From NCBI GenBank assembly GCA_051532055.1, contig JAOPTX010000044.1:34945-98944 (forward strand): a stretch of DNA of 64,000 bases. Reading direction: 5' to 3'. Within the stretch, counting starts at the first letter, position 1. Each line of letters opens with the position of its first letter. A model generated the notes under the pieces. The model saw only the letters and a list, made by a program, of their open reading frames with translations, made no database searches and was not told the DNA's origin. Shown piece by piece: positions 45,520 through 64,000 of the stretch. The position numbers and the translations under genes are program-made. Origin of the DNA: Fibrobacterales bacterium (GTDB lineage Bacteria; Fibrobacterota; Fibrobacteria; Fibrobacterales; JAOPTW01).

Positions 45520-46179
45520 ATGAAATTCATTTTTGCCATAGCCATACTCTCACTTGTCATTGTCGGATGTAAAGAAGAAAAAATCAGAACATACACTGAA
45601 AAACCTGCATCAATGGCACCACAGCCACCAACTGATCAGAAGGATATGCCAAAGATGCCTGCAGGGCACCCACCTATAGATCAAAATAGCCCGAGTATGG
45701 GCGCCGCCCCCCAAGGAGCGCCTACTAGAACAGCCAATGATACACGTCCAAAATTTAGTTGGAAACTCCCTAAAGGGTGGTTGGTTCAAGAAGGTGGCGG
45801 TATGATCACAGCAACCTATTTTCCAGACGATGGGACAAACAGTTTCAAAGCAACTCTTATAATTTTAGGGGGGATGGCAGGAGGAGTCGATGCTAATCTT
45901 GAACGATGGCTTGGACAAATTGGACTCCCTTCTGATCCTGGGACTATTGCAAAAGTAAAAAATGGGGCTACTCAGGTAGCAGGGGTTAATGTTAAAGGAA
46001 GTCTTTATGATCTTACCTTACAGGCAACTCAAGAAAAAACCTTTCTCGTAACGATTCTTCCAGTTGAGGAGTATTCGGTATTTGTCAAGTTCATGGCTGC
46101 ACCTGATGTGGCAAAAGCTCAAAAACAGAATTTCACCGCACTACTTAACTCACTGGAGTATACTGCAAATGGCAATTAG
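45520..46179 (+). CDS. Lipoprotein heading the cytochrome c maturation operon
   Basis: Lipobox IVGC, Met/Pro-rich MPKMPAGHPP linker, WKLPKGW and GGVDANLERWLGQIGL motifs. Confidence 0.7.
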   Translation: MKFIFAIAILSLVIVGCKEEKIRTYTEKPASMAPQPPTDQKDMPKMPAGHPPIDQNSPSMGAAPQGAPTRTANDTRPKFSWKLPKGWLVQEGGGMITATYFPDDGTNSFKATLIILGGMAGGVDANLERWLGQIGLPSDPGTIAKVKNGATQVAGVNVKGSLYDLTLQATQEKTFLVTILPVEEYSVFVKFMAAPDVAKAQKQNFTALLNSLEYTANGN

Positions 46180-47344
46180 CACCCTCCGGACTAAAATTAG
46201 AAGAAACAAAGTAATGAAAGTATTAACATCACTCTCCTTAACGACTGTGTGTTTAATACTGCTGCTGATTCTCACTTTTTTTGGAACCCTGTATCAGACT
46301 GATAATGGGCTCTATAGAGCCCAACAGGTCTTTTTTAACTCGTGGTTTCTCTTTTTTCCTTTTCCAGGGGCAAAGCTTGTATTGATGATACTCGGAGTAA
46401 ACTTATTAAGTGTACTCCTCCTCGTATTAAAATACAGTTGGAAAAAGTCTGGTCTAGTCTTGATGCACTGGGGGCTTACGCTTCTGGTAGTTGGGTCTGG
46501 CATTACGTACTATTTTGCACAAGAGTCGATCCTCACTCTTTCTGAAGGTGAAGTTAAGACGTCTTCGGTTATTAATAGTATATGGGAACTTAAGGTATCT
46601 CAGGAGCGCAATGGTGAAAAAATAACAACAGCTGTAAGCGTTGACCTTCTAAAGCCAGGAACACCCATTGCCCTAGAAGCCCAAGGAGTGACGGTAGTAC
46701 CCGAAGTCTATTATATAAATGCTGGAGCCTTTCAAGATACTACTGGCTGGCAACAGCGTGAAGGTGTATTGCCTGTAAATTTAAATGCACAAAAAAAATA
46801 TATAAATGGGTCGGGAATTACCTCTATCAGAGAGCGGGAGCCTGTTCCTGAAATTTCACAGAATATTCCCGGAATGCTTTTTTTGACTGGCACTCTTGAT
46901 AACAGTGGCACGAAGGAAAAAGTACTCTTGTCGGGATATGAAACTGAACCAACAATGGTAACGATTGGGAGTAAGGACTATTGGTTTCATCTTTCAAGAA
47001 CAACGGTACCACTTCCTATTGCAATAAAGCTTATTGATTTCGTGAAAACTGATCATCCGGGAATCTCAATGGCAAAAGCCTATGAGAGTACTGTGGCTAT
47101 CGAAGAGAACGGAATTCAACGTGAGCTTAAAATTTCTATGAATGAACCACTGAGAACTCATGGATTTACTTTTTTCCAATCATCATTTTCTAAAGATGGT
47201 ATGGGGCGTGAAGTCTCTATTTTTCAAGTAGTTGAGAATCCAGGACGAGTAATTCCCTATCTATCGAGTATAATAATCGGATTTGGTTTGTTACTTCACT
47301 TTATTTTACTCTTGATTAACCGCCTTAAAAAGGAGCGAGTATGA
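46169..47344 (+). CDS. ResB/CcsB-like cytochrome c biogenesis protein
   Basis: Three N-terminal TM helices (GTLYQ, HWG), LP..IKL.DF, ISMNEPL...G..FFQSSF, C-terminal TM. Confidence 0.85.
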   Translation: MAISTLRTKIRRNKVMKVLTSLSLTTVCLILLLILTFFGTLYQTDNGLYRAQQVFFNSWFLFFPFPGAKLVLMILGVNLLSVLLLVLKYSWKKSGLVLMHWGLTLLVVGSGITYYFAQESILTLSEGEVKTSSVINSIWELKVSQERNGEKITTAVSVDLLKPGTPIALEAQGVTVVPEVYYINAGAFQDTTGWQQREGVLPVNLNAQKKYINGSGITSIREREPVPEISQNIPGMLFLTGTLDNSGTKEKVLLSGYETEPTMVTIGSKDYWFHLSRTTVPLPIAIKLIDFVKTDHPGISMAKAYESTVAIEENGIQRELKISMNEPLRTHGFTFFQSSFSKDGMGREVSIFQVVENPGRVIPYLSSIIIGFGLLLHFILLLINRLKKERV

Positions 47345-49197
47345 AATTAATACTATTACTCAGCTTATTTATTTCAGTTACTTTTGCACAGTTTCCTCAA
47401 TTTGATTATAGCAGCTATGGTAATCTTCTCATTCAGAATGAAGGGCGGTATAAACCACTTGACTCCTATGCACGACATATGCTTTTGGAGTATTCGGGTA
47501 AGAGTACTATCAAGATTGAAGGTGAAAAATATTCAGCCCTTGATTGGATGAATATGGTGATTTTTAATCACCCATTGGCGAGTAGTGCTCAATGCTTTCT
47601 CATTAATAATCCTCAGGTAGTTGATGCCTATGGGGTAAAGAGGAATACGCATCGAACGTACTCATATACAGATCTACTCCCGGCTCAGCAGCGCATTACT
47701 GAGCTTGCTCAAGCAGTGATGCAGGTGGATTCAAAAAAGCGAAGTGATGTAGAGCGAGAGTTCTTACGGGTCTATTCACTCTTTCAAAAACTCCAAGAGC
47801 ATAGTGCAGCATTTACTTTTGCACAAAAGCATGAGACTTTTCGTGTCAAAACACAGGAGACCGCAAACCTGTTAGCTCTTGATACGGGGCTCTATAGTTA
47901 TTTAGAGATACGAGAGAAGGCCGATACATTGTCACGACTTATTGAGAGTATTTCAAAAAAAACGGTTGAGAATTGGACTACTTCTGATAGCACGTTGTCA
48001 CTTTTCTCTTATGCTCTGTATGAGTGGACTGAGTTTTATAAGGGAAATCAATTTGGAGTAATACCAGCCTTATTGGATAAAGAGTATTGGCTGAGTCCAT
48101 GGGCAATCATTGGTCATAGATTAACCGATCGTAAAGAGCTTTTGAGTGCATTAGAACAGTGGACAGCTTTGGCTCAAAGCTTTAATAGAGGGGATGCCGC
48201 TGCTTTTGCAGAGGCTTCACTTACAGCAGTAACTGCAGAACGAGGTCGGTATCCTGATATACGTTACTCGGCAATTGATCTCGAAGTCACTTACAATAGT
48301 TGGGATTTCTTTTATAAAGCTAAAATACTCTTTGGCTTTGGATTGCTCCTTGCGCTTCTTGCCCTTGTAGTAAAAGCTAAGGTATGTAATAGACTAAGCT
48401 TTTGGCTGCTGTTCTCTGGTACCGTTTTTGGAATAGTTGGTATTGGTTTTAGAATGTATATTAGTCAACGTCCACCAGTGACGAATCTTTTTGAGACCTT
48501 TATATTCACGGGTACCGTTACGGCACTTATTGGTATTCTTGTTGAGAAGTATCAAAAGAATGGTAATGGGAATTTAATTGGAACACTCACCGCATTGATA
48601 CTTTTCCTCATTTCGGGTAAGTATAGTTCGCAGGGTGATACCATGGGTGTACTTGTTGCAGTTCTTGATTCAAACTTTTGGCTTGCCACTCATGTGATAA
48701 CCATTTCACTTGGGTATGCAGGGTGTGTTGCTGCAGGGGTTATGGGGCATGTATATCTTATGCAACGGCTTTTTGGAAAATCAAAAGAGGATCTGACCAA
48801 AACCTATAAAACTCTTTTTGGAATTTTGGGATTTGGCCTCACTCTCTCATTTATCGGTACGGTTCTTGGCGGTATCTGGGCAGATCAATCCTGGGGTAGA
48901 TTTTGGGGTTGGGATCCAAAAGAAAATGGTGCACTGCTTATTGTTCTTTGGAGTGCGATAATTTTTCACATGCGTATTGCGGGTTGGGTTAAAGAACTTG
49001 GAGTTGCTATAGCGTCAGTCATTGGTATTATTATGGTGATGCTTGCATGGTTTGGTATCAATCTCCTTGGTGTTGGTCTCCATTCTTATGGCTTTACCAC
49101 CGGAATCGCTTTTAATCTCATACTCTATATTAGTCTTCAGGTTGTATTTCTTTTGGTGGTAGTACCATTGATTATACGGAAAGAACGGAAAGCTTAA
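47341..49197 (+). CDS. ccsA: Cytochrome c synthase CcsA/ResC (system II) with large periplasmic N-domain
   Basis: GRYKPLDS, RPPVTNLFE, FWLATHV, WWD domain WADQSWGRFWGWDPKE, GLHSYG. Confidence 0.92.
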   Translation: MKLILLLSLFISVTFAQFPQFDYSSYGNLLIQNEGRYKPLDSYARHMLLEYSGKSTIKIEGEKYSALDWMNMVIFNHPLASSAQCFLINNPQVVDAYGVKRNTHRTYSYTDLLPAQQRITELAQAVMQVDSKKRSDVEREFLRVYSLFQKLQEHSAAFTFAQKHETFRVKTQETANLLALDTGLYSYLEIREKADTLSRLIESISKKTVENWTTSDSTLSLFSYALYEWTEFYKGNQFGVIPALLDKEYWLSPWAIIGHRLTDRKELLSALEQWTALAQSFNRGDAAAFAEASLTAVTAERGRYPDIRYSAIDLEVTYNSWDFFYKAKILFGFGLLLALLALVVKAKVCNRLSFWLLFSGTVFGIVGIGFRMYISQRPPVTNLFETFIFTGTVTALIGILVEKYQKNGNGNLIGTLTALILFLISGKYSSQGDTMGVLVAVLDSNFWLATHVITISLGYAGCVAAGVMGHVYLMQRLFGKSKEDLTKTYKTLFGILGFGLTLSFIGTVLGGIWADQSWGRFWGWDPKENGALLIVLWSAIIFHMRIAGWVKELGVAIASVIGIIMVMLAWFGINLLGVGLHSYGFTTGIAFNLILYISLQVVFLLVVVPLIIRKERKA

Positions 49198-49218
49198 TCT
49201 ACTCAAAACAAATATTAG

Positions 49219-49247
49219 AAGCACTTCATTTTTGGAGTGCTTTTTTT
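49219..49247 (+). terminator. Intrinsic terminator after ccsA
   Basis: AAGCACTTCA...TGGAGTGCTT followed by a T run. Confidence 0.75.
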
Positions 49248-49380
49248 GTCTCTTAAGTTATGTATCTAATATGGTGTGGATATGAGATAGGGAGAGTTGT
49301 TCTTCCTGTTGTATGTCATACCTATACTCGTTCCGTATAAGGGTAGGAGAGGATACTTATTATGTGAAAAGAGGAGATAT

Positions 49381-49413
49381 AAAAAAAGGGTGATCAACGA
49401 TCACCCTTTTTTT
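49381..49413. terminator. Bidirectional terminator ending the hexaheme cytochrome gene
   Basis: AAAAAAAGGGTGATC-AAC-GATCACCCTTTTTTT. Confidence 0.9.
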
Positions 49414-49427: not shown

Positions 49428-50573
49428 TTAAGGATTAAGTGCTTTGATTGTGTTATTCAACACACTTCTTATAAAAGTAGGATTGTGAACACCTTTCGAT
49501 TGGTCTTCTATGATTAATTTGTAGTTCCAAACTGCACCAGCTTCTGTGCCGATAACTTTTTTGCTCACTGCTTTTGCTGTGATCACACCAGTATCAGAAG
49601 TGTCTGCCGTGGCTAACCCTTTACCTATTAGAAGAGTTTCAACTGAATCTATGAGTGTTTGAATGTCAGTTTGAAGTGCCGTAATTTTTAAACTGAGGGT
49701 ATCAGCATCAGTATGACATGTTGCACAGCCAACAAGGTTCATAGTTGTATCTGTATTGAGCATGCCAAATTGGTGTCCACCAGATTCAGTTGAGTTTCTG
49801 TCTGCTTCATTTGCCATGTGACATGTTACACAAGCATTTGGTATGTTTGCATGGCTATATGCTGCTTTTGCAATGGTGTCACCGGTAAAGAGGAATGATG
49901 CAACTGAGTTAAGAGTTGCTGATTGTGGTCCGTGGTGTGGTCCATAATATGCACTGATTGAAACTGAATCTGTTGCAACCGGTACGGTTTTTCGTGGTTG
50001 ATGGCATGATGCACATACATTTGCAGTACCGTAGGTATATTTAGTTTGATTGAGGACCATGAGTACGCTATCAGTTGGAATTATAGTAAGAGCCCAGTCT
50101 GTACTATCATATGCATTGTGAATATTGTGACAAGTACGACAGTTTGGCTGTGTTGGAATTTCAAAAGCGGCAACAGTGCCTTCAACGGTAGTTCCTGCAG
50201 AATCGATAACTTCTTTATACCCTTCGTGAGTGTGACAACCAGCGCAGCTCGTTCTATTGCCATAAACGGCATGTCCACCTGTTGCATGAGTAGACATTGC
50301 ATACTGCTGTTGACGGGCAATGAGTTCGGTACCATCATTATGACAGGTCTTACATTGAGTTGCGTCAACTCCATCGGTACCGTTTGTACCATTCGTACCA
50401 TTAGTGCCATTACTAATGACGGTGGTGTCTGTCCCACAAATGACCGAAACAGTGAGGCTATCTGCATTATCAATGGTGATACAACCTGTACCGGCTGTTC
50501 CTATTTCACCTTCTAGACACCCTAACAAAAGGATTGCAGTGGCAAAAACCAAGATGACTAATTTTATATTCAT
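49428..50573 (-). CDS. Hexaheme c-type cytochrome lipoprotein
   Basis: Lipobox LLLGC; CKTCH, CAGCH, CRTCH, CASCH, CVTCH, CATCH; C-terminal helices with DQSKGVHNP. Confidence 0.9.
   Translation of the reverse strand: MNIKLVILVFATAILLLGCLEGEIGTAGTGCITIDNADSLTVSVICGTDTTVISNGTNGTNGTNGTDGVDATQCKTCHNDGTELIARQQQYAMSTHATGGHAVYGNRTSCAGCHTHEGYKEVIDSAGTTVEGTVAAFEIPTQPNCRTCHNIHNAYDSTDWALTIIPTDSVLMVLNQTKYTYGTANVCASCHQPRKTVPVATDSVSISAYYGPHHGPQSATLNSVASFLFTGDTIAKAAYSHANIPNACVTCHMANEADRNSTESGGHQFGMLNTDTTMNLVGCATCHTDADTLSLKITALQTDIQTLIDSVETLLIGKGLATADTSDTGVITAKAVSKKVIGTEAGAVWNYKLIIEDQSKGVHNPTFIRSVLNNTIKALNP
50371..50411 (-). repeat. Gly-Thr-Asn triplet (collagen-like) repeat in the cytochrome linker
   Basis: Encodes NGTNGTNGTNGTDG. 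Confidence 0.75.
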
Positions 50574-50633: not shown

Positions 50634-50691
50634 AAAATTAGACTTGAAAGGGGGCAATTGTTACTTAGTTAATACCATAATTGAGTAACAA

Positions 50692-50705
50692 CACCATATT
50701 TGGTG
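50692..50705. promoter_or_regulatory. Putative upstream activator site
   Basis: CACCA-TATT-TGGTG palindrome, same core as at 52921-52948. Confidence 0.65.
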
Positions 50706-50863: not shown

Positions 50864-51238
50864 ATGAAAATCATTACAGTAATTGCCCCAATTGTTTTAT
50901 TGGGAATTATATCATGTTCAGACGATGTAACAATAAACCCATCAATAAGTTCTAACCAAGAACAGCGGTTTTCAAGTACTGCACTTCCAGAATCGAAATT
51001 TTATAGTTGTTTGACAAATGATAGTCTTGGGAAGTTATCGAGTTGTATCTATTATACTAGTTTTCCTCAATTTTTATTCCATTCTGTCGAGGAAGCTTGT
51101 TCTGGGACCTTTGCTGTAAGTGAATGTCCTGCTGATGCAGTAATTACCTGTAAAAAAGTGAGTGAGGAGTGGCTTGATAAGCAAGTATTTTTTTACTCGT
51201 CAACATTCAGCAATGAAGATTGCCCAGCTGATCATTAG
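50864..51238 (+). CDS. Small Cys-rich lipoprotein, no heme motif
   Basis: Lipobox IISC; six further Cys; AAAGG RBS. Confidence 0.55.
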   Translation: MKIITVIAPIVLLGIISCSDDVTINPSISSNQEQRFSSTALPESKFYSCLTNDSLGKLSSCIYYTSFPQFLFHSVEEACSGTFAVSECPADAVITCKKVSEEWLDKQVFFYSSTFSNEDCPADH

Positions 51239-51534: not shown

Positions 51535-52800
51535 TTATGGATGAACTGGTGTTGTAATCAACATCGCCGCTGCTGCTGCACCTGTGGTTGGGCCAGCTCC
51601 TCCCACTCCGTGACAAGTCATACAGCTGTAATCGACTGGAATTGAAATAGCATTTGTAGTACCGTCAAGATCAGCAGCAACAAAGTTTGTATCTGATATT
51701 GATGAGAGGGAAAGAATGTGAGACCTCATATCACCAGTTTTACCACCAGGGATACCAAGGGCGGTAACTCCAGTAACATAAGTCGCTGTGGATGTTGTAG
51801 CAGATTTTACAATTTTTGGCATGTGACAACTTGTACAGTTGTGACCTGTGTATGCTGCATTCACTGTAATTGGTTTTGTTGATGTCTCGTTGTGACATAC
51901 AGAGCAATCTTTGGTAACACCTTGTCCTGATGCTTGTGCATCAAATTTTACTGATGAATGAGGGTCGTGACACGTTACACAACCATGTGCTGCTCCGCCT
52001 TTACCAACAAGAAGTTCATGAGATTGTTCATGGTGTTTGATGAGGCCACTAGAAACTTTAACCACTTTTGCTTTATCTCCACGGACGTGGCAAACTGCAC
52101 AAACGGTATTTGCTTTGTGTGTTGCACCTAGAGCTCCAAATTCAGCTACTGCCCCTTGAACATCACTTGAGTTTTGAGCGTTAATCGCTGTAAATGTTTT
52201 TGTATTGTGCCCAGGGCCTGCGACCACATTATCACCGTGACATCTTTGACAGGTTATGGCGTCATACTGCATGTTTCCTGCCATGAGTGGTGCATCGGGG
52301 TTGGTTGCAGTGGGGTCCCAGCCGGTAGCATGACAAGAGCCACAAGCATATGCTGAGTGAGCTTCTCCATCATGATATGCCGAAAATTCACCTGAAGCAA
52401 AATTGTATTGTGCATTCGCACCGTGTATTATTAAGCCACTGGTATCAATATATCGGGCCTTCCAGCCATAGCCACCAACAATATATCCGGTTGTTGCGAG
52501 GGACATTTGAGCATCGGGAACTTCAGCAAGAGAATTGGTTACTGTATTGGGGAACATTGCTGCTATATCAGTAAAAGGGAACGCTGGTATAGAATCGCCA
52601 ACAACTTTATTAAGTTTGAATGCGTGGCCAGATTCTTTCCAGTTTGCAAATTGAGTTGCATGGCAAGAAGCGCAATCACTTGCTCCTTCATGTCTATCAT
52701 AAGATGCATCTTGATCAACTATCGGAGCGGTCGCAGAATCCTCTGTACAGCCAATAAAAGCTGAGGATATAATCGCAGTCATGATGAGTAACTTTTTCAT
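51535..52800 (-). CDS. Octaheme c-type cytochrome lipoprotein
   Basis: Start MKKLLIMTAIISSAFIGC (AAGGA RBS, lipobox); CASCH, CGSCH, CQRCH, CAVCH, CVTCH, CSVCH, CTSCH, CMTCH. Confidence 0.9.
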   Translation of the reverse strand: MKKLLIMTAIISSAFIGCTEDSATAPIVDQDASYDRHEGASDCASCHATQFANWKESGHAFKLNKVVGDSIPAFPFTDIAAMFPNTVTNSLAEVPDAQMSLATTGYIVGGYGWKARYIDTSGLIIHGANAQYNFASGEFSAYHDGEAHSAYACGSCHATGWDPTATNPDAPLMAGNMQYDAITCQRCHGDNVVAGPGHNTKTFTAINAQNSSDVQGAVAEFGALGATHKANTVCAVCHVRGDKAKVVKVSSGLIKHHEQSHELLVGKGGAAHGCVTCHDPHSSVKFDAQASGQGVTKDCSVCHNETSTKPITVNAAYTGHNCTSCHMPKIVKSATTSTATYVTGVTALGIPGGKTGDMRSHILSLSSISDTNFVAADLDGTTNAISIPVDYSCMTCHGVGGAGPTTGAAAAAMLITTPVHP

Positions 52801-52850: not shown

Positions 52851-52866
52851 AGCAAAGATCATGCCT
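52851..52866 (-). promoter_or_regulatory. Sigma54 (-24/-12) promoter of the octaheme cytochrome gene
   Basis: Minus strand reads AGGCATG-ATCT-TTGCT (GG-N10-GC). Confidence 0.8.
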
Positions 52867-52915: not shown

Positions 52916-52960
52916 ATTTGGTAATAACACCAGATTTGGTGTTATTACTTATATTTGGTG
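52916..52960. promoter_or_regulatory. Putative upstream activator sites
   Basis: Perfect inverted repeat GTAATAACACCA-GATT-TGGTGTTATTAC (52921-52948); ATTTGGT recurs at 52916, 52934 and 52953. Confidence 0.65.
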
Positions 52961-52999: not shown

Positions 53000-54364
53000 T
53001 CAATTGATGGAATGCTTGTCGAGTTTGTTTCGAAAGGTTGAATAAGGCAGCTTTAATAGCTTGGAGGCTGTTTTTTGATTGCCATCACTTTTATTGAGTG
53101 CATGAGTTAAAATATTTTTTTCAACATCCTTAATTATTGATTCAAAACTTGAATGCTCACCAAAAGTGAATAGAGGAGGGTGGTTCTCGGGTGTTTTTTC
53201 TGTATCGGATTCAAAGTATTCCCGGGGAAGGTCTTCAGGAGTGATACAAGTAGCTGCGTTAGTAAGGCAGAGTCTTTGAACAAGGTGTTCAAGCTGTCTT
53301 ACATTTCCGGGCCATGTATAATTCATGAGTTTCTGTAGTGCCGCATCCTCTATGGTTATCTCCTTACCTGATGAAAATTTATCAGCAAAATGTTTGATAA
53401 GCAAGGGTAAATCCGTTATTCGATTTTTCAATGATGGTATGTGAATGGGAAGTACATTTAAACGATAATAGAGGTCTTCTCTAAATGACCCAGCTTTAAC
53501 CAAATCAGCGAGGTTTGCTTTGGTTGCAACGATAATTCGAACATCGGATGAAAGTAACTTTTCGCCACCAACTCGTTCAAAGGTCCTTTCTTGTAAAAAC
53601 CTGAGGAGCTTAACCTGGACATCGAAGTCAAGATCATCAATTTCGTCTAAAAAGAGTGTTCCTCCCTGAGCTTGTTCAATTCTACCAATTTTCTGTTTAT
53701 GGGCTCCGGTAAATGCACCTTTTTCGTGACCGAATAGTTCGCTCTCTAGCAGAGTTTTAGTAAATACGGCGCAGGTTACTTTAATTATAGGTTTCTTTTT
53801 TCGATCACTGTGAAGGTGTATGGCCTCAGCTACCAGTTCTTTTCCAGTACCGGTTTCACCTTCTATAAGTACGGTTGCATCAGAGGGCGCAATAGTTTCA
53901 ATGTTTTTGAATAGAGAAAACATGAGTTCATGGTTTCCAATAAGGTTTTGGAATTGTGTATGAGATTGAAGAGTCCGCTTCATTTGTTTGTTGGCGATTT
54001 TCAAATCAACAAAATCTTTAATTTTATTGAGAGTATGGTTGATATCACTGATTTCAAATGGCTTGGTGATAAAATCGAAAGCACCCGCTTTGAGACATTC
54101 AACGGCTAATTCTATATTTCCAAATGCGGTAATCATGATAACTATTGCAGAGGATTCGAGTTCCTTGATTTTTTTTAAGGTATCGAGCCCATTTAATTGG
54201 GGCATGTTGTAATCGCAGAGCACGCAATCAGGTTCAAGCTCGGTATATGAGTGGAGGGCAGTGAGAGGGTTTTCAAAATCATAAATGGTATGACCTGCTT
54301 CACGGAGGTCATCGCCGATACCGATACGTATACTCGCATCATCATCTATGAGAAATATTTTCAT
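53000..54364 (-). CDS. Sigma54-dependent response regulator (NtrC family)
   Basis: Receiver domain, GETGTGKE, ELFGHEKGAFTGA, FLDEID, WPGNVRQL, Fis-type HTH. Confidence 0.95.
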   Translation of the reverse strand: MKIFLIDDDASIRIGIGDDLREAGHTIYDFENPLTALHSYTELEPDCVLCDYNMPQLNGLDTLKKIKELESSAIVIMITAFGNIELAVECLKAGAFDFITKPFEISDINHTLNKIKDFVDLKIANKQMKRTLQSHTQFQNLIGNHELMFSLFKNIETIAPSDATVLIEGETGTGKELVAEAIHLHSDRKKKPIIKVTCAVFTKTLLESELFGHEKGAFTGAHKQKIGRIEQAQGGTLFLDEIDDLDFDVQVKLLRFLQERTFERVGGEKLLSSDVRIIVATKANLADLVKAGSFREDLYYRLNVLPIHIPSLKNRITDLPLLIKHFADKFSSGKEITIEDAALQKLMNYTWPGNVRQLEHLVQRLCLTNAATCITPEDLPREYFESDTEKTPENHPPLFTFGEHSSFESIIKDVEKNILTHALNKSDGNQKTASKLLKLPYSTFRNKLDKHSIN

Positions 54365-55853: not shown

Positions 55854-57125
55854 TTATATTTCGAGTCCAAAAAGCTCTTTGGCCCAGAGTGAGGCAGATT
55901 GAGCGCGACCATCATTACACATCTCTTTCAAGGCACTGGAGGGGGTATGGAGTATTTTGTTGGTCAATGAGTTAATCGTTTTTTTTACTAAATCATACTC
56001 TTTATCACACAAGTGGGACTCGAGTGGCTTGAGCTCATTTTGGGCAATGGTTTGAATATGAGATCTCATTGCCTTGAGTACGGGAACAATTTCTTGGGCA
56101 TTATACCATGCGTAAAATTCGGTTAATTCTTTCGCAATTATTTCTTCTACTTCAGAGATCGCACTGGAACGCTTGTCAATATTTGAATCGACAATTGAAT
56201 TAAGTGTATCGATGTCAAACAAAGTTATTTCATCAAATTGGGTAACATCAGCAGCAATATTGCGAGGTGCAGCTATATCAACACAAGTGAGTGGTGTTTT
56301 GCTATTGCGTTTTTGAATGATTTGTTTTGTTATTAATGGTTCGCACGATGAGGCACATGTTATTATAATATCAAGAGAATCGAGAGCTTCTGGGAGTAAT
56401 TCTAATGGCCAAGCAGTTCCATTATATTCCTGAGCCATCTTCTCCGCTTTTGCAAAAGTCCGATTGATAAAATGGATAGAATCAACGCCTGAGTCTAATA
56501 AATTTTTGACAGCAAGTTCACCCATTTTACCCGTACCTAAAATGCCAATACGGGCTTTTTTTAATGTGGGGCAGTGTTTACGAAGGAGCTCGACCGCTGC
56601 AAAACTAATAGATACAGCCCCCTTCCCAATTTCTGTTTCATGACGTACTCGCTTGCCCAATTTAATAGATTCTTGAAAAAGGCGATTAAGATACGATCCG
56701 GTTGTTCCTTGTTCTTTAGCAAAGTGGTAGGCGTTTTTAATTTGCCCTAGAATTTGTACTTCTCCAACTATCAGACTGTCCAGTGAACAGGTAACGCGGA
56801 AAAGGTGTTGTATGGCGTATTCATGAGCAATAAAAAAGAGTGCAGTATCAAGATCACGGTTTTTGATCCCTTTTAGGTTATACCACGTTGCACGAAGTTG
56901 TGGAAGAAACTTATGAGGTTCATCATTTACAACCATATAGAGCTCGGTTCTATTGCAGGTCGCAATGAGAATAACTTCTTCGATACCGGGAATAGCTGAG
57001 AATGTTTCGAGTGCCAAGCCTTGTTCACCTTGGGTGAATACTAGTTGGTCACGTTCATTGATTGCCGCAGATTTGTGATTTACACCGAGAATACAAGTAT
57101 GCTGTCTAGTTTGGGAATGTACCAT
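55854..57125 (-). CDS. hemA: Glutamyl-tRNA reductase
   Basis: TCNRTE, LDSLIVGEVQILGQ, GTGKMG, NRT, DIAAPRNI. Confidence 0.95.
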   Translation of the reverse strand: MVHSQTRQHTCILGVNHKSAAINERDQLVFTQGEQGLALETFSAIPGIEEVILIATCNRTELYMVVNDEPHKFLPQLRATWYNLKGIKNRDLDTALFFIAHEYAIQHLFRVTCSLDSLIVGEVQILGQIKNAYHFAKEQGTTGSYLNRLFQESIKLGKRVRHETEIGKGAVSISFAAVELLRKHCPTLKKARIGILGTGKMGELAVKNLLDSGVDSIHFINRTFAKAEKMAQEYNGTAWPLELLPEALDSLDIIITCASSCEPLITKQIIQKRNSKTPLTCVDIAAPRNIAADVTQFDEITLFDIDTLNSIVDSNIDKRSSAISEVEEIIAKELTEFYAWYNAQEIVPVLKAMRSHIQTIAQNELKPLESHLCDKEYDLVKKTINSLTNKILHTPSSALKEMCNDGRAQSASLWAKELFGLEI

Positions 57126-57321
57126 AAATATTTAAGAGACCCTTATGCGTACTGCGGTGAATAACTCTGTAAACATTATATAAAATATTTGTTTACAATT
57201 GGTCTCATTTTTAAGGCGAGTGATTTATAATTTTTCATGTGAATAATTAACAGTTGAGGGGGTGGCATTTTGTGAGATATATGTGATATACTCATACTCA
57301 TACCAATAATATGGGTTATCC

Positions 57322-58791
57322 ATGAAAAAATACACGAATAACTACTTTTCATTTACCGGAATGATTTTACTCGTGATTTTTGTTGTTATCGAAGTACCTC
57401 TTGTGCTCTGGGAATCATTTGGATCGACCGATGTATTTATAGGCCTCATCACTTATACGGTTATGCCGGTAGTACTCTTCTTTGGGGTAGGGCTCTATGT
57501 ATATGGAATGTGGTTGAATAAAGTTTCAGAAAAAAAACATGAGCCTACTAGTGCTCACATTGTACTTGACCTTTCGAATCCGAAACATTTAAAAAGCCTA
57601 TTTATTGTAATAATTGTAGTGGTATGCTTTTTTCTTGCCTCATTCATAGGCTCATATAAAGTGTATCACTATACGGAGAGTAATGAGTTTTGTGGAACTG
57701 TGTGTCATGATATAATGCATCCAGAATATACTACTTTTCAAGAATCACCTCATGCTCGGGTAAAATGTGCAGAATGTCACATTGGTGAAGGAGCGGGGTG
57801 GTATGTTCAGTCAAAATTGTCGGGAGCACGGCAAATATATCATGCAATTGTAGGAGATTACCCGAGGCCTATTGCAACTCCTATTGAAAACCTACGACCA
57901 GCAAAAGAGACTTGTGGGCAGTGTCACTGGCCTAAAAAGTTTTTTGGGGCCATAGAGCAAAAACACAATTATTTCCCTGAAGAAATGGAAAATCAAGCAT
58001 GGCGCCTAAAATTACTCATCAAAGTCGGAGGGGGTGGTGTTGGCAAAGAGGGGATTCATGCTCATATGTTTGAGGATAATGAAATTTTCTATGTCGCTGA
58101 AGATAGAAGGCGGCAGAATATTCCATGGGTAAAGGTCGTTTCTTCGACAGGAGTAACAAAAATTTACAATAGTGAAGATTCCCCGTATAAGGAGGCCGCA
58201 CCGCCAGTGGATAAAGTGAGAAAGATGGACTGTATTGATTGTCATAATCGGCCATCCCATAGATATAAGGCCCCGTATCGGGCTTTGAATGAAGGACTCA
58301 ATTTTGGCTCAATTTCGTGGGAAATACCTGAAATTAAACAGAAAACAATAGAATTGTTCGAAAAAGAATATGAAACTCAGGATAAAGCTATAGTAAGTAT
58401 TAAGAAGTCATTGGTCGAGTATTACACAGAAAACCATAGTGAGATACTTGAAAATAAAAGACAACAGTTTGATAGTGCACTTGTGACCATTGAAAAGATG
58501 TATCGAGGGTCAATATTTCCAGAAATGAAAGCACGGTGGGATGCGTATCCTGATAATATTGGACATTTGATCTCTGATGGCTGTTTCCGGTGTCATGATA
58601 ATAAGCATGTTGCTTCTAAGGGTGAGGTGATAACGAGAGACTGTAACACCTGTCATTTGATCATAGAACAGGGACTTAGTGATGCTTTAGAGACAAATAC
58701 TCAAGGGCTCCCTTTTCGTCATCCGGTAGATATCGATGAAGAATGGAAAAGTGAGAACTGCTCAGAATGTCACACAGGTGGAACTATTTAG
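57322..58791 (+). CDS. ImcH-like inner-membrane heptaheme cytochrome (NapC/NirT-related)
   Basis: Three N-terminal TM helices; CGTVCH (CX3CH), CAECH, CGQCH, CIDCH, CFRCH, CNTCH, CSECH. Confidence 0.8.
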   Translation: MKKYTNNYFSFTGMILLVIFVVIEVPLVLWESFGSTDVFIGLITYTVMPVVLFFGVGLYVYGMWLNKVSEKKHEPTSAHIVLDLSNPKHLKSLFIVIIVVVCFFLASFIGSYKVYHYTESNEFCGTVCHDIMHPEYTTFQESPHARVKCAECHIGEGAGWYVQSKLSGARQIYHAIVGDYPRPIATPIENLRPAKETCGQCHWPKKFFGAIEQKHNYFPEEMENQAWRLKLLIKVGGGGVGKEGIHAHMFEDNEIFYVAEDRRRQNIPWVKVVSSTGVTKIYNSEDSPYKEAAPPVDKVRKMDCIDCHNRPSHRYKAPYRALNEGLNFGSISWEIPEIKQKTIELFEKEYETQDKAIVSIKKSLVEYYTENHSEILENKRQQFDSALVTIEKMYRGSIFPEMKARWDAYPDNIGHLISDGCFRCHDNKHVASKGEVITRDCNTCHLIIEQGLSDALETNTQGLPFRHPVDIDEEWKSENCSECHTGGTI

Positions 58792-58840: not shown

Positions 58841-60772
58841 GTGCAGATTAAAAATATTTTTATTCAGTTGATACTTATCGTTGTTATTACTGGAGTAAAT
58901 TCTCTTGCTACCGAAGATGACTTTGATTATGAAGGGGCCTCTGCAGTCTGTGCTGAGTGCCATGATGGAAATAAAAGTGATGCTCCTGTTGCATTACAAG
59001 ATACCATTGATATGTCAATACATGAAGGAACATACTGTCTTGAGTGTCATGTTGACCTACAACATGAAGTGTATGATTCTACAGTAAGTAAAGGACATAT
59101 CCAAAAAGTACAATCTGTTCAGTGTGGAGAATGTCATGATGAAGAAGCTGAGGTGTATACCACTCATGGTATTGCCAAGCCAGGAAGTGATTCATTAGTA
59201 CCAACTTGTGCAAGTTGCCATGGGAGCCATTCAATAAAAGAGGTTGCAGATAGTAATGCATTGGTACATGAAAATAATTTAGCGAAGACTTGTGCACGGT
59301 GTCATGAAAATTTTGATGCAATGGAAAAATATGGAATTTTAAATAATACTGTTATTAGCAAGTATCAAAATAGCATTCACGGAATAACCCTTTCAAATGA
59401 TTCAATACAACCTGCCCGGTGTAAAGATTGCCATTTTACCGATGGCACTGCACATAAAATTTATTCACCGGGGAACCCGGTATCAAAAATTAATCATTTT
59501 CTCATACCGCAAACCTGTGGTAAATGTCATGAAGAAGAAGAGAAAAAATATTGGGATGGTATTCATGGTAAACTTACAGCAAGGGGCGAAACTGATGCGC
59601 CAGTCTGTACCAGTTGTCATGGTGAGCATTCTATTCTCTCTACTAAAAGTGGAAAATCATTTGTCAGTCACGAAAATCTTGCAGTGGCAACCTGTACACC
59701 CTGTCATAATTCTGCAACATTGTCAGCTAAATACGGATTAGATAACCATGGTAATGTGTCATACATTGATGATTATCATGGGCGTAAATCAAGTCTAGGG
59801 GATACTACTGCGGCAAACTGTGCATCATGTCATAATGCCCATGATATACGAACTCAAAAGGACCCACTCTCAAAAACAAATAAAGTAAATATTCTTAAAA
59901 CGTGTATTCAATGTCATGATGACATAACCCAAGAAATCGCAGAAACACCCATACACTTTGTAAATAGAGAAGGGTCGACCTCGTTTTGGGAACAACTTTT
60001 TACGGTCATCTATATTGTAATAATCCTTGCAACTATAGGGGGAATGATCTTTTATATTGTTCTAGATCTTGTACATGCAGTACGTAAATCAAAAAAAGAA
60101 AAACAAGTGAAGCGAATGAATGGTGTTGAACGCCTACAGCATATGTTTCTTGCAATTTCATTTACCGTACTGGTCGTTACCGGGTTTGCCCTGAGATATT
60201 CAGACTCATGGTGGGCCGATATTATGTTTGGTCGTAGTGGTGGTTTTTGGATTCGCCATCAAATTCATATTGTATCTGCTGTAATTATTATTGTAACATG
60301 CTTTTGGCACCTAGTGTATTTGAAAACAAAACGAGGCACGGCCTTTATTGTCAGTATTTTTCCTCGAGTAAAAGATGCAAAAGATGCATTTCAAATGGTT
60401 CTGTATAATTTAAGAATTTCAAAAAGTAAACCAGAATTTGATCGATTCACTTTTGCTGAAAAATTTGAATACTGGGCACTTGTTTGGGGAATGATTGTTA
60501 TGACCGTGACGGGGTTTGCCCTTTGGTTTGATTATGTATTAGTGCAATATATCCCCAAAGAAGCGATTAATGTTATGAGAATTATACACTATTACGAAGC
60601 ATGGTTGGCGGCACTGGCTATACTTATTTGGCATATGTATGGGACGGTATTTAACCCGCATGTATACCCAATGAATCCCTCATGGTTTACAGGGCATATG
60701 CTTAAAAAACAGTATGAACATGAGCATAGCGCTGATAAAGACTTTGAAGAGGTTGAAGAGAATGAAAAATAG
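58841..60772 (+). CDS. CbcL-like protein: 11-heme c-type domain fused to an FdnI/HydC-type cytochrome b
   Basis: Signal peptide; 11 CxxCH; C-terminal TM helices with ERLQH, HIVSA, WHLVY, EKFEYWA, IHYYEA, IWHMY. Confidence 0.85.
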   Translation: MQIKNIFIQLILIVVITGVNSLATEDDFDYEGASAVCAECHDGNKSDAPVALQDTIDMSIHEGTYCLECHVDLQHEVYDSTVSKGHIQKVQSVQCGECHDEEAEVYTTHGIAKPGSDSLVPTCASCHGSHSIKEVADSNALVHENNLAKTCARCHENFDAMEKYGILNNTVISKYQNSIHGITLSNDSIQPARCKDCHFTDGTAHKIYSPGNPVSKINHFLIPQTCGKCHEEEEKKYWDGIHGKLTARGETDAPVCTSCHGEHSILSTKSGKSFVSHENLAVATCTPCHNSATLSAKYGLDNHGNVSYIDDYHGRKSSLGDTTAANCASCHNAHDIRTQKDPLSKTNKVNILKTCIQCHDDITQEIAETPIHFVNREGSTSFWEQLFTVIYIVIILATIGGMIFYIVLDLVHAVRKSKKEKQVKRMNGVERLQHMFLAISFTVLVVTGFALRYSDSWWADIMFGRSGGFWIRHQIHIVSAVIIIVTCFWHLVYLKTKRGTAFIVSIFPRVKDAKDAFQMVLYNLRISKSKPEFDRFTFAEKFEYWALVWGMIVMTVTGFALWFDYVLVQYIPKEAINVMRIIHYYEAWLAALAILIWHMYGTVFNPHVYPMNPSWFTGHMLKKQYEHEHSADKDFEEVEENEK

Positions 60773-60807
60773 AACCACAAGAATACACTCTCGTGTAAAA
60801 GGGGCAT

Positions 60808-62040
60808 ATGAATAACTTATCGAGAATTATACTCACGTTACTTGTGGCTTCAGGTAGCGTGTATGCAGATTACATATCTGCTCGAGTAAAAGCAGGTGCG
60901 TATTATCTGGAAAGTAAAGATGAATCAGTTGATCAAAATATTTTTCAATATCATGCGCTGAACTCATCATTTGAAAAAAGCGGTGTATTCGCATTACTAT
61001 CAGGGAGTTACTCTGATATATATAAAAACCGGGGGTCGGAGTATACTAATGACTATCGGTTATCACTTGCAAAGGCTGGGTATACAACACCATCGGGAAA
61101 TGTTACCGGTGCAGTCGGTCGTATGTATAACACTTTTATAGATAGAAGTGTTTGGCTGGATGGGCTTGACTTGCAGTACACCATTAAAAATATGCTGACG
61201 CTACAGGCTTATGGTGGGTACGTTGTTCCGACAGCCTATGATGATGATTTCATACATACGGATTCTGAATTTTTGACCACTGGTGGAAGCATTGAATTCA
61301 CCGGACTGAAGAATATAGTTCTGCTGGCTGATTATGTAAAAGCATCGAAGGATGATAAAGGAACTGTCGGTCTGGGGGCCAATGTGATACTCCAAGAAAA
61401 ATATGACCTGTTTACGAACGGGGTTTGGGATTTTGAAACGTCATCTCTCGATCATGCTAATGTTTCGGGACGGATTAATGTAAGGAACAATGACCAATTA
61501 CTGCTCTCTTATACCTTTGATGATGCAGAGCAGGATACCACTCGGTACTTTGATTTGTTAGACCACCCCACTAGCAACTTGATTCAGGGAGGGTACCTAT
61601 ATAATGTAAATCAAAAATTGCACATGACTCTGAATTATGGATTATTACTCTATGAAGATGAAACAGCTCGGGAACCTGAGGATGTTATTGCCCATATGAT
61701 CGATGCACGGGTTACTGGCTACGGTGCCTATGTGAGCTTTACCAAAGAGTTTGATAGTGACACCGAAATGCAGGAGGCGACAGCAGGGTATGAATACAAA
61801 ATATTGGATAACCTGTTAGCCGGGGTAAATGCTGGATTCATGAGGTATAAATGGAGCGATGATAAGGGGGAGAGCAAAAAGGAGTTTAAGAATTCTAAAT
61901 TTGTTGCAGTGGTATGTGAATATGCCGTTATCAAAAATCTATGGCTGAATCTAGAGTATGAATTTTTGAGTAATCGAGAGTATTCTCAGGATCATCGAGT
62001 GTTTGCTGGACTTAACTATTCATTCATGAAGGGGCTGTAA
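60808..62040 (+). CDS. Outer-membrane beta-barrel (putative porin of a porin-cytochrome conduit)
   Basis: Signal peptide, many alternating amphipathic strands, terminal strand RVFAGLNYSF; lies among cytochrome genes. Confidence 0.7.
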   Translation: MNNLSRIILTLLVASGSVYADYISARVKAGAYYLESKDESVDQNIFQYHALNSSFEKSGVFALLSGSYSDIYKNRGSEYTNDYRLSLAKAGYTTPSGNVTGAVGRMYNTFIDRSVWLDGLDLQYTIKNMLTLQAYGGYVVPTAYDDDFIHTDSEFLTTGGSIEFTGLKNIVLLADYVKASKDDKGTVGLGANVILQEKYDLFTNGVWDFETSSLDHANVSGRINVRNNDQLLLSYTFDDAEQDTTRYFDLLDHPTSNLIQGGYLYNVNQKLHMTLNYGLLLYEDETAREPEDVIAHMIDARVTGYGAYVSFTKEFDSDTEMQEATAGYEYKILDNLLAGVNAGFMRYKWSDDKGESKKEFKNSKFVAVVCEYAVIKNLWLNLEYEFLSNREYSQDHRVFAGLNYSFMKGL

Positions 62041-62041
62041 C

Positions 62042-62839: not shown

Positions 62840-62849
62840 GGAGTGAAGT

Positions 62850-63404
62850 ATGAACATAAAGATATTTCTTGTAATAGTACTTGTTCTCTGGTTTGTTGGA
62901 TGTAGTAAACTTGATTCTGATGGTTCTGCTGAATTAGAAAAAGATACTTGTGCATCATGCCATGGATTACCACCAGAATCAGGGATTCATAGTCTCGCTC
63001 AATCAAATAGTTATGGGTATAGCTGTGGTGAATGCCATAAAGGGTATAGAGTAGATAGTGTTTTAGCGACTAATGCTCTCCTTCATACAAATGGAGTAGT
63101 GAATGTCGAATATAACTCTCTTCCTGGTATGAGGAAAACAATGGTAGGGGTGACCTGCTCAAATATTGCATGCCATGGTGCGGAAATGAGTAATAATTCA
63201 GGAATTGTGTGGAATAGTAGTTCTAATTTGGGTGATACCGTTGGATGTCAAACATGTCATAGTACAGGGGTCGGTTTAGTAACAGGACATAGAGGCGGGA
63301 ATGGCGCATGCTTTGGCTGTCATAGTACTGTTGTAGAGGGCACGATTGATGCTATGACCATTAAGGATTACACAAAACATATTAACGGACAAGTGGATTT
63401 TTAA
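62850..63404 (+). CDS. Lipoprotein multiheme cytochrome with CxxxxCH...CxxCH module
   Basis: Lipobox FVGC; CASCH, CGECH, CSNIACH, CQTCH, CFGCH; H.NG motifs. Confidence 0.85.
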   Translation: MNIKIFLVIVLVLWFVGCSKLDSDGSAELEKDTCASCHGLPPESGIHSLAQSNSYGYSCGECHKGYRVDSVLATNALLHTNGVVNVEYNSLPGMRKTMVGVTCSNIACHGAEMSNNSGIVWNSSSNLGDTVGCQTCHSTGVGLVTGHRGGNGACFGCHSTVVEGTIDAMTIKDYTKHINGQVDF

Positions 63405-63423
63405 AATCAAACAAGGAGATACA

Positions 63424-63966
63424 ATGAAAGTTAGTGTAATAAGTCTCGTATTTATTCTAGGAATATTTTGGGTAGGTACAGTACAGGCTGCAGACCCAGC
63501 ACATAAGTTTGTCGGTGCTGGTAAATGTAAAACATGCCATAAAAAGAAGAAGGATGGTGAACAATATCAGCAATGGCAGAAATCCGGTCATGCTCAAGCA
63601 TATAAAACCTTAGGAACTGCCGAGGCTAAAGAAGTTGCGAAAAAGAATGGCGTCACCGGTGATCCTCAAAAAGCACCGCAGTGTTTGAAGTGCCATGTTA
63701 CGGCATATGGTGTTGATGCAAAATATTTAGATAAGAGCTACAAAATGGAGGATGGCGTACAATGTGAAAGTTGCCATGGGCCGGGAAAAGATTACAAAAA
63801 GAAAAAGGTTATGAAAGACCATGCGAAATCAATTGCAGCAGGAATGATTGTTCCCGATGAAAAAATGTGTAAGACTTGTCATAATAAAGAGTCGCCAACC
63901 TACAAACCTTTTGATTATAAGAAGAAGTATAAAAAGGTTGATCATCCCATACCAGGGAAAAAGTAA
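63424..63966 (+). CDS. Periplasmic tetraheme cytochrome (c554-like), Lys-rich
   Basis: Signal peptide; FVGAGKCKTCH, W..S.HA, CLKCH, GVQCESCHGPG, CKTCH. Confidence 0.9.
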   Translation: MKVSVISLVFILGIFWVGTVQAADPAHKFVGAGKCKTCHKKKKDGEQYQQWQKSGHAQAYKTLGTAEAKEVAKKNGVTGDPQKAPQCLKCHVTAYGVDAKYLDKSYKMEDGVQCESCHGPGKDYKKKKVMKDHAKSIAAGMIVPDEKMCKTCHNKESPTYKPFDYKKKYKKVDHPIPGKK

Positions 63967-64000
63967 ACGATTAGCTATGATAGACATTTCAACAGAAAAG

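What the first reader, a model, noticed from the sequence alone, without database searches (positions are those of the whole stretch)
45520..64000. Self-contained candidate extracellular electron transfer locus in a Fibrobacterota-like genome
Seen: directly after the tyrS terminator, ~18.5 kb is devoted almost entirely to heme proteins. It covers heme precursor supply (hemA), system II maturation (ResB/CcsA), a two-component sigma54 activator, seven multiheme cytochromes (48 CxxCH + 1 CX3CH + 1 CX4CH by my count) and a beta-barrel. Known: quinol oxidase -> periplasmic cytochrome -> porin-cytochrome -> surface lipoprotein cytochrome is the architecture of Geobacter and Shewanella metal/electrode respiration. 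Inference: every layer of such a chain is encoded here together with its biogenesis and regulation. The host appears Fibrobacterota-like, a group mainly known for fermenting polysaccharides, so this could be an undescribed respiratory or electron-exchange system. Direction of electron flow cannot be read from sequence.
Basis: partly seen in the sequence, partly recalled or inferred. Interest (0 to 1): 0.92.

Follow-up and report, generated by a model that had tools for sequence, protein, structure and literature searches.

The report
Geobacter-type electron conduit in marine Fibrobacterales
A marine polysaccharide-degrading bacterium, from a phylum known mainly for gut fermenters, carries a full gene set related to the one Geobacter uses to pass respiratory electrons through its cell envelope to minerals outside, so it may breathe solids while digesting plant-type polymers; the kind of system is known and its activity here is untested.

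Summary
In detail: seven cytochromes with 48 CxxCH, one CX3CH and one CX4CH, ResB/CcsA, hemA, a sigma54 two-component pair and a barrel. The host is a marine Fibrobacterales with 27 GH5 matches. The system is not undescribed in kind. It is a member of the Geobacter porin-cytochrome (Pcc) family: a 22-strand plug-less barrel, a nonaheme and a hexaheme lipoprotein are profile homologues of OmbB-, OmaB- and OmcB-like proteins, fed by an ImcH and a CbcL-like quinol oxidase. It most likely exports electrons to extracellular acceptors (about 0.65); direction and substrate are not shown. 'Self-contained' is overstated: six transcription units, with a second ResB/CcsA and hemA elsewhere, and the sigma54 pair seems to control only two lipoprotein cytochromes. 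New here: barrel homologues occur in 30 of 296 Fibrobacterota genomes but 0 of 151 of the large family in the same order, with interchangeable inner modules (ImcH/CbcL, ACIII/Qrc-like, or hydrogenase). My paper searches found no description of Pcc in this phylum. The scan noted an ImcH-Pcc operon and a hydrogenase-Pcc operon before on other DNA.

The parts
45520..46179 (+). 219-aa lipoprotein of no known family; always directly upstream of this long-form resB-ccsA; candidate maturation accessory
   Evidence: lipobox; no Pfam/NCBIfam hit; upstream of resB in 9 fetched loci
46214..47344 (+). resB-like, system II cytochrome c maturation
   Evidence: PF05140 E 1.4e-11
47341..49197 (+). ccsA-like heme channel/synthase with a long periplasmic N-terminal domain
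   Evidence: PF01578 E 7e-24; TIGR03144 below cut-off
49428..50573 (-). hexaheme lipoprotein with NrfA/OcwA-type C-terminal module; homologue of the C-terminal half of OmcB-like proteins; candidate surface terminal reductase
   Evidence: lipobox, 6 CxxCH, no CxxCK; profile hits NrfA, OcwA 6I5B, OmhA 6QVM; OmcB-like 94 bits vs own NrfA 48 bits
50619..50632 (-). candidate sigma54 -24/-12 site (GG-N10-GC) of the hexaheme gene
   Evidence: GG and GC kept in G001
50685..50705 (-). candidate activator site shared with the octaheme gene
   Evidence: only here and at 52921-52948 in the 5.17 Mb assembly; kept in G001
50864..51238 (+). 124-aa lipoprotein, no family, no heme motif; role unknown
   Evidence: 77% identical in G001
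51535..52800 (-). octaheme lipoprotein; its module is fused, in two copies, to the hexaheme module in Pcc lipoproteins of two other genomes
   Evidence: 8 CxxCH, lipobox; blastp E 1e-54 to 5e-45 (G242 22-heme) and 8e-56 to 2e-50 (G321 24-heme); no PDB hit
52852..52865 (-). candidate sigma54 -24/-12 site of the octaheme gene
   Evidence: kept in G001
52921..52948 (.). palindrome, candidate activator site (could also terminate the regulator transcript)
53000..54364 (-). NtrC-type sigma54 response regulator
   Evidence: PF00158, PF00072, PF02954; rpoN motif on C7
54361..55842 (-). membrane sensor histidine kinase, two TM helices
   Evidence: PF00512, PF02518; hydropathy
55854..57125 (-). hemA, glutamyl-tRNA reductase (one of two copies)
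   Evidence: PF05201 E 3e-47; paralogue 60% on C7
57322..58791 (+). ImcH-family inner-membrane heptaheme quinol oxidase
   Evidence: 3 TM, CX3CH, 6 CxxCH; NapC/NirT domain; definition in PMC6295460
58841..60772 (+). CbcL/MtrH-like bc-type cytochrome: 11 c-hemes plus cytochrome b domain
   Evidence: PF01292 E 3e-16, FdnI-like; His 434, 476, 490, 583, 598 in the membrane part
60808..62040 (+). Pcc-family outer-membrane barrel, 22 strands, no plug
   Evidence: model pLDDT 85; fold searches; OmbB-like 73 bits, ExtB-like 40 bits
62042..62839 (+). periplasmic nonaheme: N-terminal c7-type modules plus OmaB-like C-terminal part; candidate barrel-filling wire
   Evidence: 29 aa per heme; 3OV0 E 2e-26 for profile positions 20-157; OmaB-like 50 bits vs decoys up to 31
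62850..63404 (+). lipoprotein with 4 CxxCH + 1 CX4CH; candidate outer-face cytochrome
   Evidence: TIGR01904 at cut-off; lipobox; follows barrel and multiheme across the phylum
63424..63966 (+). basic tetraheme c554-like protein; candidate periplasmic shuttle
   Evidence: PF13435 E 9e-22; 1BVB E 4e-10; next to ImcH in G240, G242, G243

Best explanation
The locus encodes a Geobacter-type (Pcc) pathway that exports respiratory electrons. Inferred flow: sugar oxidation reduces menaquinone; the ImcH protein and the CbcL-like bc cytochrome oxidise menaquinol (in Geobacter ImcH serves high-potential acceptors); the basic tetraheme and the c7 modules of the nonaheme carry electrons across the periplasm; the nonaheme's C-terminal hemes sit in the 22-strand barrel and meet the pentaheme lipoprotein; the octaheme and hexaheme lipoproteins, a split form of an OmcB-like surface cytochrome switched on by the adjacent sigma54 two-component pair, hand electrons to Fe(III)/Mn(IV) oxides, humics or other solids when oxygen and nitrate run out. 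Shown here: genes, motifs, homologies, barrel fold, conserved gene order, candidate promoter sites. Inferred: complex formation, surface exposure, direction, acceptor and regulation.
For: Pcc complexes of G. sulfurreducens move electrons across liposomes to ferrihydrite (PMC4282303). ImcH definition met; ImcH needed for high-potential extracellular acceptors (PMC4251993 abstract) and reported only from Fe(III) reducers among metal-cycling bacteria (PMC6295460). Barrel sits next to a cytochrome of 4 or more hemes in 26 of 28 fetched Fibrobacterota loci, the other two ending at a contig edge. Octaheme and hexaheme modules are fused in Pcc lipoproteins of G242 and G321. Barrel lumen has no plug. 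Host is a heterotroph with 27 GH5 and 2 GH9 matches, futalosine pathway and Nqr/Rnf, no RuBisCO found. Two secretins, one in a Gsp-like cluster, could export lipoproteins. Full synteny in G001 at 72-98% identity.
Against: No activity, localisation or direction data. Identities are low (barrel profile only; nonaheme 30% over 139 aa). The hexaheme keeps the NrfA fold and a His pair like the one distal to OcwA's five-coordinate heme, so it may be a catalyst. ImcH homologues are very widespread (7633 hits of 8000 candidates scored), many without a barrel nearby, and in G240, G242, G243 ImcH sits with the tetraheme and maturation genes away from the barrel. CbcL/MtrH/MtoC proteins occur in both reducers and oxidisers.
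Confidence: 0.65

Rival explanations
1. The conduit exports electrons but mainly to partner cells or conductive particles (direct interspecies transfer, or an electron sink for fermentation) rather than to minerals as a respiratory end point.
For: Same hardware as the best explanation; host degrades particulate polysaccharide; relatives wire a Tat-exported hydrogenase straight to the barrel, which shows the module serves different electron budgets.
Against: Two quinol oxidases of the types that cover different potentials in Geobacter, and a full aerobic and nitrate respiratory set, fit a versatile respirer; no partner data.
Confidence: 0.13
2. The lipoprotein cytochromes are enzymes for soluble compounds (NO, hydroxylamine, nitrite, sulfur oxyanions or chelated metals); ImcH/CbcL feed them, and the barrel complex has a secondary role.
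For: Hexaheme profile hits NrfA and octaheme nitrite reductases; all members of that fold show nitrite or NO reductase activity in vitro (PMC9250108); the two lipoproteins have their own candidate sigma54 control, apart from the barrel operon.
Against: No CxxCK and Arg in place of the NrfA Tyr position; the genome has a separate NrfHA with its own ResB/CcsA; OmcB-like proteins score twice as high as NrfA; both modules are fused in Pcc lipoproteins elsewhere.
Confidence: 0.12
3. The conduit takes electrons in (from Fe(II), FeS or reduced humics) to reduce quinone and support oxygen or nitrate respiration.
For: CbcL/MtoC family also occurs in Fe(II) oxidisers; high-potential sinks (two heme-copper oxidases, Nap, Nrf) are present.
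Against: ImcH reported only from reducers; menaquinone is a poor acceptor for Fe(II) electrons (established knowledge); no RuBisCO found; abundant organic donors.
Confidence: 0.07

Closest known systems
[quoted passage not shown]
   Same: Barrel of 18-22 strands, periplasmic cytochrome of 5-14 hemes, lipoprotein cytochrome with atypical motif; profile homology of barrel, periplasmic cytochrome and the NrfA-fold lipoprotein module.
   Different: Nine hemes with extra c7 modules; a small pentaheme lipoprotein follows it; the OmcB-like module is a separate hexaheme gene under candidate sigma54 control; quinol oxidases share the operon.
ExtABCD of G. sulfurreducens (PMC6148476, PMC8357294)
   Same: Parts list: periplasmic multiheme, barrel, pentaheme and hexaheme lipoproteins.
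ImcH (GSU3259) and CbcL/MtrH/MtoC quinol oxidoreductases (PMC4251993, PMC6295460)
   Same: ImcH: 3 TM + CX3CH + 6 CxxCH. CbcL-like: multiheme c domain + FdnI-like cytochrome b.
   Different: 11 c-hemes and about five membrane helices against 9 and six in CbcL; both genes adjacent and co-oriented with the barrel. No named Geobacter sequence aligned.
Pcc cluster of Ignavibacterium album (IALB_1837-1839) and related Ignavibacteria/Bacteroidota cassettes
   Same: CbcL-like, ImcH, c554-like, barrel, 12-14-heme cytochrome, CX4CH lipoprotein and hexaheme-like gene in one cluster; barrel profiles align at probability 99.8.
   Different: Separate barrel clade; shorter periplasmic cytochrome; maturation genes and sigma54 pair included.
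OcwA (6I5B) and OmhA (6QVM), cell-surface terminal reductases of Gram-positive Fe(III) reducers
   Same: NrfA-type C-terminal module without the Lys ligand, His pair near the open heme.
   Different: Six hemes, lipid anchor and short Gly-rich spacer; diderm host.
MtrCAB of Shewanella; PCC3 and PCC4 (PMC5566968)
   Same: Porin-cytochrome principle; MtrB is one of many barrels matched by fold (Z 15.2, rmsd 6.7).
   Different: No MtrB/MtrA family hit above cut-off; heme counts and inner-membrane protein differ from PCC3/PCC4.

Membership tests
Pcc (OmbB-OmaB-OmcB family) | Outer-membrane barrel of 18-22 strands | tested here: met
   22 strands in the model, pLDDT 85; range from PMC4245776
Pcc (OmbB-OmaB-OmcB family) | Barrel homologous to OmbB | tested here: met
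   Profile A2 hits barrels of a tandem barrel/8-heme/12-heme cluster at E about 1e-21; genome unnamed, OmbB label inferred from layout
Pcc (OmbB-OmaB-OmcB family) | Adjacent periplasmic c-cytochrome of 5-14 hemes homologous to OmaB | tested here: met
   9 hemes, 1 bp after the barrel stop; profile A5 50 bits on OmaB-like vs at most 31 on other multihemes of G000
Pcc (OmbB-OmaB-OmcB family) | Lipoprotein cytochrome in the cluster, often with CX3-4CH | tested here: met
   184-aa lipoprotein with CX4CH; OmcB-like hexaheme 10 kb away
Pcc (OmbB-OmaB-OmcB family) | Proteins form a complex that moves electrons across the membrane | not testable with these tools
ExtABCD | Sequence orthology to ExtA, B, C, D | tested here: inconclusive
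ImcH | Three N-terminal TM helices, CX3CH next to them, six CxxCH, NapC/NirT-like region | tested here: met
ImcH | Quinol oxidation for high-potential extracellular acceptors | not testable with these tools
   Needs genetics or biochemistry
CbcL/MtrH/MtoC | Multiheme c domain (3-23 hemes) fused to HydC/FdnI-like cytochrome b with His ligands | tested here: met
   11 hemes, PF01292, five membrane-region His
CbcL/MtrH/MtoC | Orthology to CbcL itself rather than CbcA/B-type paralogues | not tested
   No named reference aligned
NrfA nitrite reductase (hexaheme) | CxxCK active-site heme and catalytic Tyr | tested here: not met
   All six motifs CxxCH; invariant Arg at the position after heme 4 where NrfA has Tyr (NrfA residue roles recalled)
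MtrCAB | 28-strand-class MtrB barrel and decaheme MtrA | tested here: not met
   410 aa, 22 strands; nine hemes; TIGR03508 far below cut-off
PCC3 / PCC4 | Very large cytochromes (PCC3) or 4/5/10-heme set without extracellular cytochrome (PCC4), with a five-helix IMP | tested here: not met
   Heme counts and inner-membrane proteins differ from the descriptions read

The most novel reading that the evidence does not exclude
A Pcc conduit is an old, vertically inherited trait of free-living Fibrobacterota that the gut fermenters lost. Its outer module is constant while the inner electron source is swapped between lineages (ImcH plus CbcL here, an ACIII/Qrc-like complex, or a periplasmic hydrogenase). 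This marine genus would then couple breakdown of insoluble polysaccharide directly to reduction of insoluble acceptors in one cell, with a dedicated sensor switching on the surface cytochromes, and the 219-aa lipoprotein would be an unrecognised cytochrome c maturation factor.
Probability: 0.4. Interest if true: 0.72.

Novelty: new member of a known kind. Interest (0 to 1): 0.52.

Why it matters
Polymer breakdown and metal respiration in sediments are usually assigned to different guilds. A cellulase-rich Fibrobacterales with a complete Pcc pathway could do both, and would be missed by surveys that treat the phylum as fermentative. The phylogenomic survey of the phylum found no electron transport chain in Fibrobacteraceae and Chitinivibrionia and left the ancestry of respiration open (PMC4704652); the 30 of 296 distribution bears on that question. 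The compact operon with both quinol oxidase types, and the natural swaps of the inner module, give a tractable set for testing how Pcc barrels are fed.

Tried and rejected
Named Geobacter ext sequences: two primer scans of metagenome contigs gave 0 and 11 matches, none with multiheme ORFs; ExtABCD orthology, my first guess from heme counts, was then weakened by profile scores. Complex prediction of barrel plus nonaheme was not available, so binding is untested. The hexaheme model had not finished when the session ended. Sequence searches of the PDB with the barrel profile, the single hexaheme and the octaheme found nothing; no Pcc structure appeared in the fold lists, which does not exclude one. 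NCBIfam gave no barrel family; the Atlas gave unnamed clusters. Sigma70 scan was at chance level (63 vs 57 +/- 7); a window-wide sigma54 consensus scan was also at chance (6 vs 7.6), so the two sigma54 sites rest on position and conservation, and the shared activator motif was defined from these two sites (its chance figure is post hoc). No sigma54-like site was found upstream of imcH, hemA or the 219-aa gene. RNA contigs of one small metatranscriptome from the same sample cover parts of the hexaheme, octaheme, barrel, resB, ccsA, 219-aa and tyrS genes; contigs cannot rank genes, DNA carry-over was not excluded and uncovered parts prove nothing, so this is a hint only. Recent horizontal acquisition: GC matches the genome and G001 is syntenic. 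Trees were quick searches with SH-aLRT only, no AU test, and rows were chosen by similarity to the window. Complex I 49-kDa subunit, CcmE, RuBisCO and [NiFe]-hydrogenase were not found in this 94% complete assembly.

Full report
Observation. The window is G000:C44:34945-98944 of a 5.17 Mb, 94% complete assembly. Between 45520 and 63966 lie fifteen genes. Seven encode c-type cytochromes with 6, 8, 6, 11, 9, 4 and 4 CxxCH motifs, 48 in all, plus one CX3CH and one CX4CH; the rate elsewhere is 0.038 per 1000 aa. Pfam names ResB, CcsA, HemA, a histidine kinase and a sigma54 response regulator. Cytochrome ORFs fill 42% of the span and the genes form six transcription units on both strands.

Host. 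The genome shares its order with a family of 151 genomes and its genus with G001. G001's orthologue of the 219-aa gene is labelled Fibrobacterales, a same-class genome's ImcH is labelled Fibrobacteria, and the DNA is held by a marine metagenome. The genome has 27 GH5 and 2 GH9 matches, two futalosine-pathway genes, two Nqr/Rnf subunits, two heme-copper oxidases, and genes I read as napA, nrfHA and an octaheme reductase with a cytochrome b partner (names inferred from motifs and neighbours). It looks like a facultatively respiring polysaccharide degrader.

Inner membrane. 57322-58791 has three N-terminal helices, CX3CH and six CxxCH, the published definition of ImcH (PMC6295460, first of six parts and passages read). 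The family is large: 7633 of 8000 scored candidates passed. 58841-60772 has eleven hemes and an FdnI-like cytochrome b with five His in the membrane part, the CbcL/MtrH/MtoC plan. In G. sulfurreducens ImcH is required for acceptors above about 0.1 V (PMC4251993, abstract); that CbcL serves low potentials is recalled.

Outer membrane. The 410-aa protein models as a 22-strand barrel with no plug (pLDDT 85, pTM 0.74, 19-row alignment); all listed fold matches are membrane barrels, best Z 18.4 with 343 residues aligned to the FyuA wall. Its profile (A2) matched 31 of 301 genomes drawn from the phylum of a deltaproteobacterial genome; 26 of 29 small loci had a cytochrome of three or more hemes beside the hit. 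[quoted passage not shown] Against such proteins the barrel profile scores 73 bits (Ext-like barrel 40), the nonaheme profile 49-50 bits (ExtA-like 15; best of twelve other multihemes of G000 31), and the hexaheme profile 94 bits (own NrfA 48). The Pcc family allows 18-22 strands, 5-14 periplasmic hemes and atypical motifs in the outer cytochrome, and includes Ignavibacterium album (PMC4245776, passages). The same cassette of CbcL-like, ImcH, c554-like, barrel, 12-14-heme cytochrome and CX4CH lipoprotein recurs in Ignavibacteria and Bacteroidota among 80 ImcH loci (34 with a CbcL-like hit over half its length, 13 with a nonaheme-like hit), and their barrels align with ours at probability 99.8. 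The locus is therefore a Pcc member. My first guess, ExtABCD (12/18 strands/5/6; PMC8357294 and PMC6148476, passages), fits by heme counts but less by sequence.

The two stand-alone lipoproteins. The hexaheme has the NrfA-type C-terminal module and hits OcwA and OmhA. It lacks CxxCK and keeps a His pair, as OcwA does distal to its five-coordinate heme (PMC9250108, passages). The octaheme module occurs twice, fused to a hexaheme-type module, in Pcc lipoproteins of G242 (22 hemes) and G321 (24 hemes), so the two genes are probably a split surface cytochrome. Each has a GG-N10-GC site, preceded 52-55 bases upstream by a shared motif found nowhere else in the assembly and kept in G001. I infer that the adjacent sigma54 pair controls these two genes; no such site precedes imcH. 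G242 also has this kinase-regulator pair next to its fused cytochrome.

Self-contained? Only partly. A second ResB/CcsA lies beside nrfHA, a second hemA on C7, and hemE/hemN-like genes elsewhere. Past the window end comes a convergent DUF2271, diheme lipoprotein, DUF4266, DUF3570, thioredoxin cassette with flavinylation motifs, a type described in PMC8238504 (passages); apbE is at 22738-23775. No soluble terminal reductase follows.

Distribution. G001 has the whole locus in order. ImcH was found in 5 of 296 Fibrobacterota genomes at E 1e-20. Of 29 other genomes with a hit I fetched 28; in 26 a cytochrome of four or more hemes is adjacent, and two end at a contig edge. The inner module varies: pentaheme, molybdopterin-fold, Fe-S and NrfD genes in four f7 genomes; a [NiFe]-hydrogenase directly upstream of the barrel in six genomes of three families; other cytochrome b types in G244 and G105. 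In a quick tree the 17 Fibrobacterota barrels form one clade (SH-aLRT 99) and Fibrobacteria ImcH proteins one group (90) beside Omnitrophota; both are suggestive only.

Mechanism. Most likely menaquinol is oxidised by ImcH or the CbcL-like protein, electrons pass through the tetraheme and nonaheme, cross in the barrel to the pentaheme lipoprotein, and reach solids through the octaheme and hexaheme. I give this 0.65, transfer to partner cells 0.13, soluble-substrate catalysis 0.12, uptake 0.07. RNA contigs from the same sample cover parts of several genes but do not prove transcription.

Novelty. The kind is known. Ten full-text searches (five with a Fibrobacter-type term: 11, 30, 62, 96, 130) listed no paper describing Pcc or ImcH in Fibrobacterota. 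The word stem had 0 occurrences in the main texts of PMC6295460, PMC4245776, PMC7399161, PMC12133095, PMC8238504, 10.1101/2020.04.01.018762 and PMC12545173, and in three readable supplements of the last. Other supplements, subscription journals and PMC11495043 (search listing only: it holds all three terms) were not seen and could list such genomes. PMC4704652 (passages) found no respiratory chain in Fibrobacteraceae or Chitinivibrionia; PMC11653725 (passages) already treats UBA5070 Fibrobacterota as denitrifying lignocellulose degraders; PMC5566968 (passages) defines PCC3/4, which differ. Earlier scan notes report an ImcH-Pcc operon and a hydrogenase-Pcc operon on other DNA. Verdict: real, a new member of the Pcc/ImcH/CbcL kind in an unexpected phylum; interest 0.52.

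Noticed in passing
L119:6558-12263, L120, L121, L122, L182:536-5881, L184:5874-11395 (G104, G107, G106, G102, G051, G114): [NiFe]-hydrogenase small and large subunit genes run directly into barrel, 10-11-heme cytochrome and lipoprotein cytochrome, with no cytochrome b between; six genomes in three families. Could link H2 to extracellular electrons without quinone. An earlier scan note (e1-7211371) reports the same kind.
   Followed up: partly
L109, L110, L111, L113 (G263, G248, G274, G273): The same barrel-nonaheme-lipoprotein-hexaheme-resB-ccsA block sits next to a pentaheme, molybdopterin-fold, Fe-S, NrfD set (ACIII/Qrc-like) in place of ImcH/CbcL.
   Followed up: partly
window 45520-46179: Unknown lipoprotein directly upstream of long-form resB-ccsA in the window and 9 fetched loci, including a Verrucomicrobiota locus (L079); candidate maturation accessory.
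   Followed up: partly
G000:C44:98981-102396 (L178:982-4397; just past window end) and window 22738-23775: DUF2271 lipoprotein, diheme+CX4CH lipoprotein, DUF4266, DUF3570 and thioredoxin-like genes with flavinylation motifs, convergent on the cytochrome operon and syntenic in G001; the only apbE match lies 22 kb upstream. A cytochrome inside this cassette type did not appear in the passages read.
   Followed up: partly
G000:C23:61190-66411 (L180): Octaheme (PF11783) plus heptaheme-cytochrome b fusion plus two YeeE/YedE-like membrane proteins (label recalled): candidate sulfur-oxyanion reductase module.
   Followed up: partly
G000:C67:108-3255 and C27:113-2982: Tetraheme, Fe-S and NrfD-like genes and a Tat molybdoenzyme read as NapA with a tetraheme, on two contig ends; probably one Nap system with an NrfCD-type quinol oxidase. 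A similar set follows ImcH in G242.
   Followed up: no
L108:1-10513 (G242), L185:5722-11275 (G090), L114:2291-10637 (G244): Larger Pcc variants: two barrels in tandem with a 22-heme lipoprotein; a 27-heme protein; a 25-heme protein with an NHL-repeat partner.
   Followed up: partly
window 38577-41008: Three co-oriented genes that read as SRAP peptidase, umuD and umuC (labels from sequence recall), an SOS mutagenesis cassette; a second Y-family polymerase-like gene at 34462-35565.
   Followed up: no
window 41111-42355: Lipoprotein with a C-terminal lamin-tail domain (PF00932), upstream of xseA.
   Followed up: no
window 57158-57187: Inverted repeat in the divergent hemA/imcH promoter region, nearly conserved in G001; candidate operator of an unknown regulator.
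   Followed up: partly
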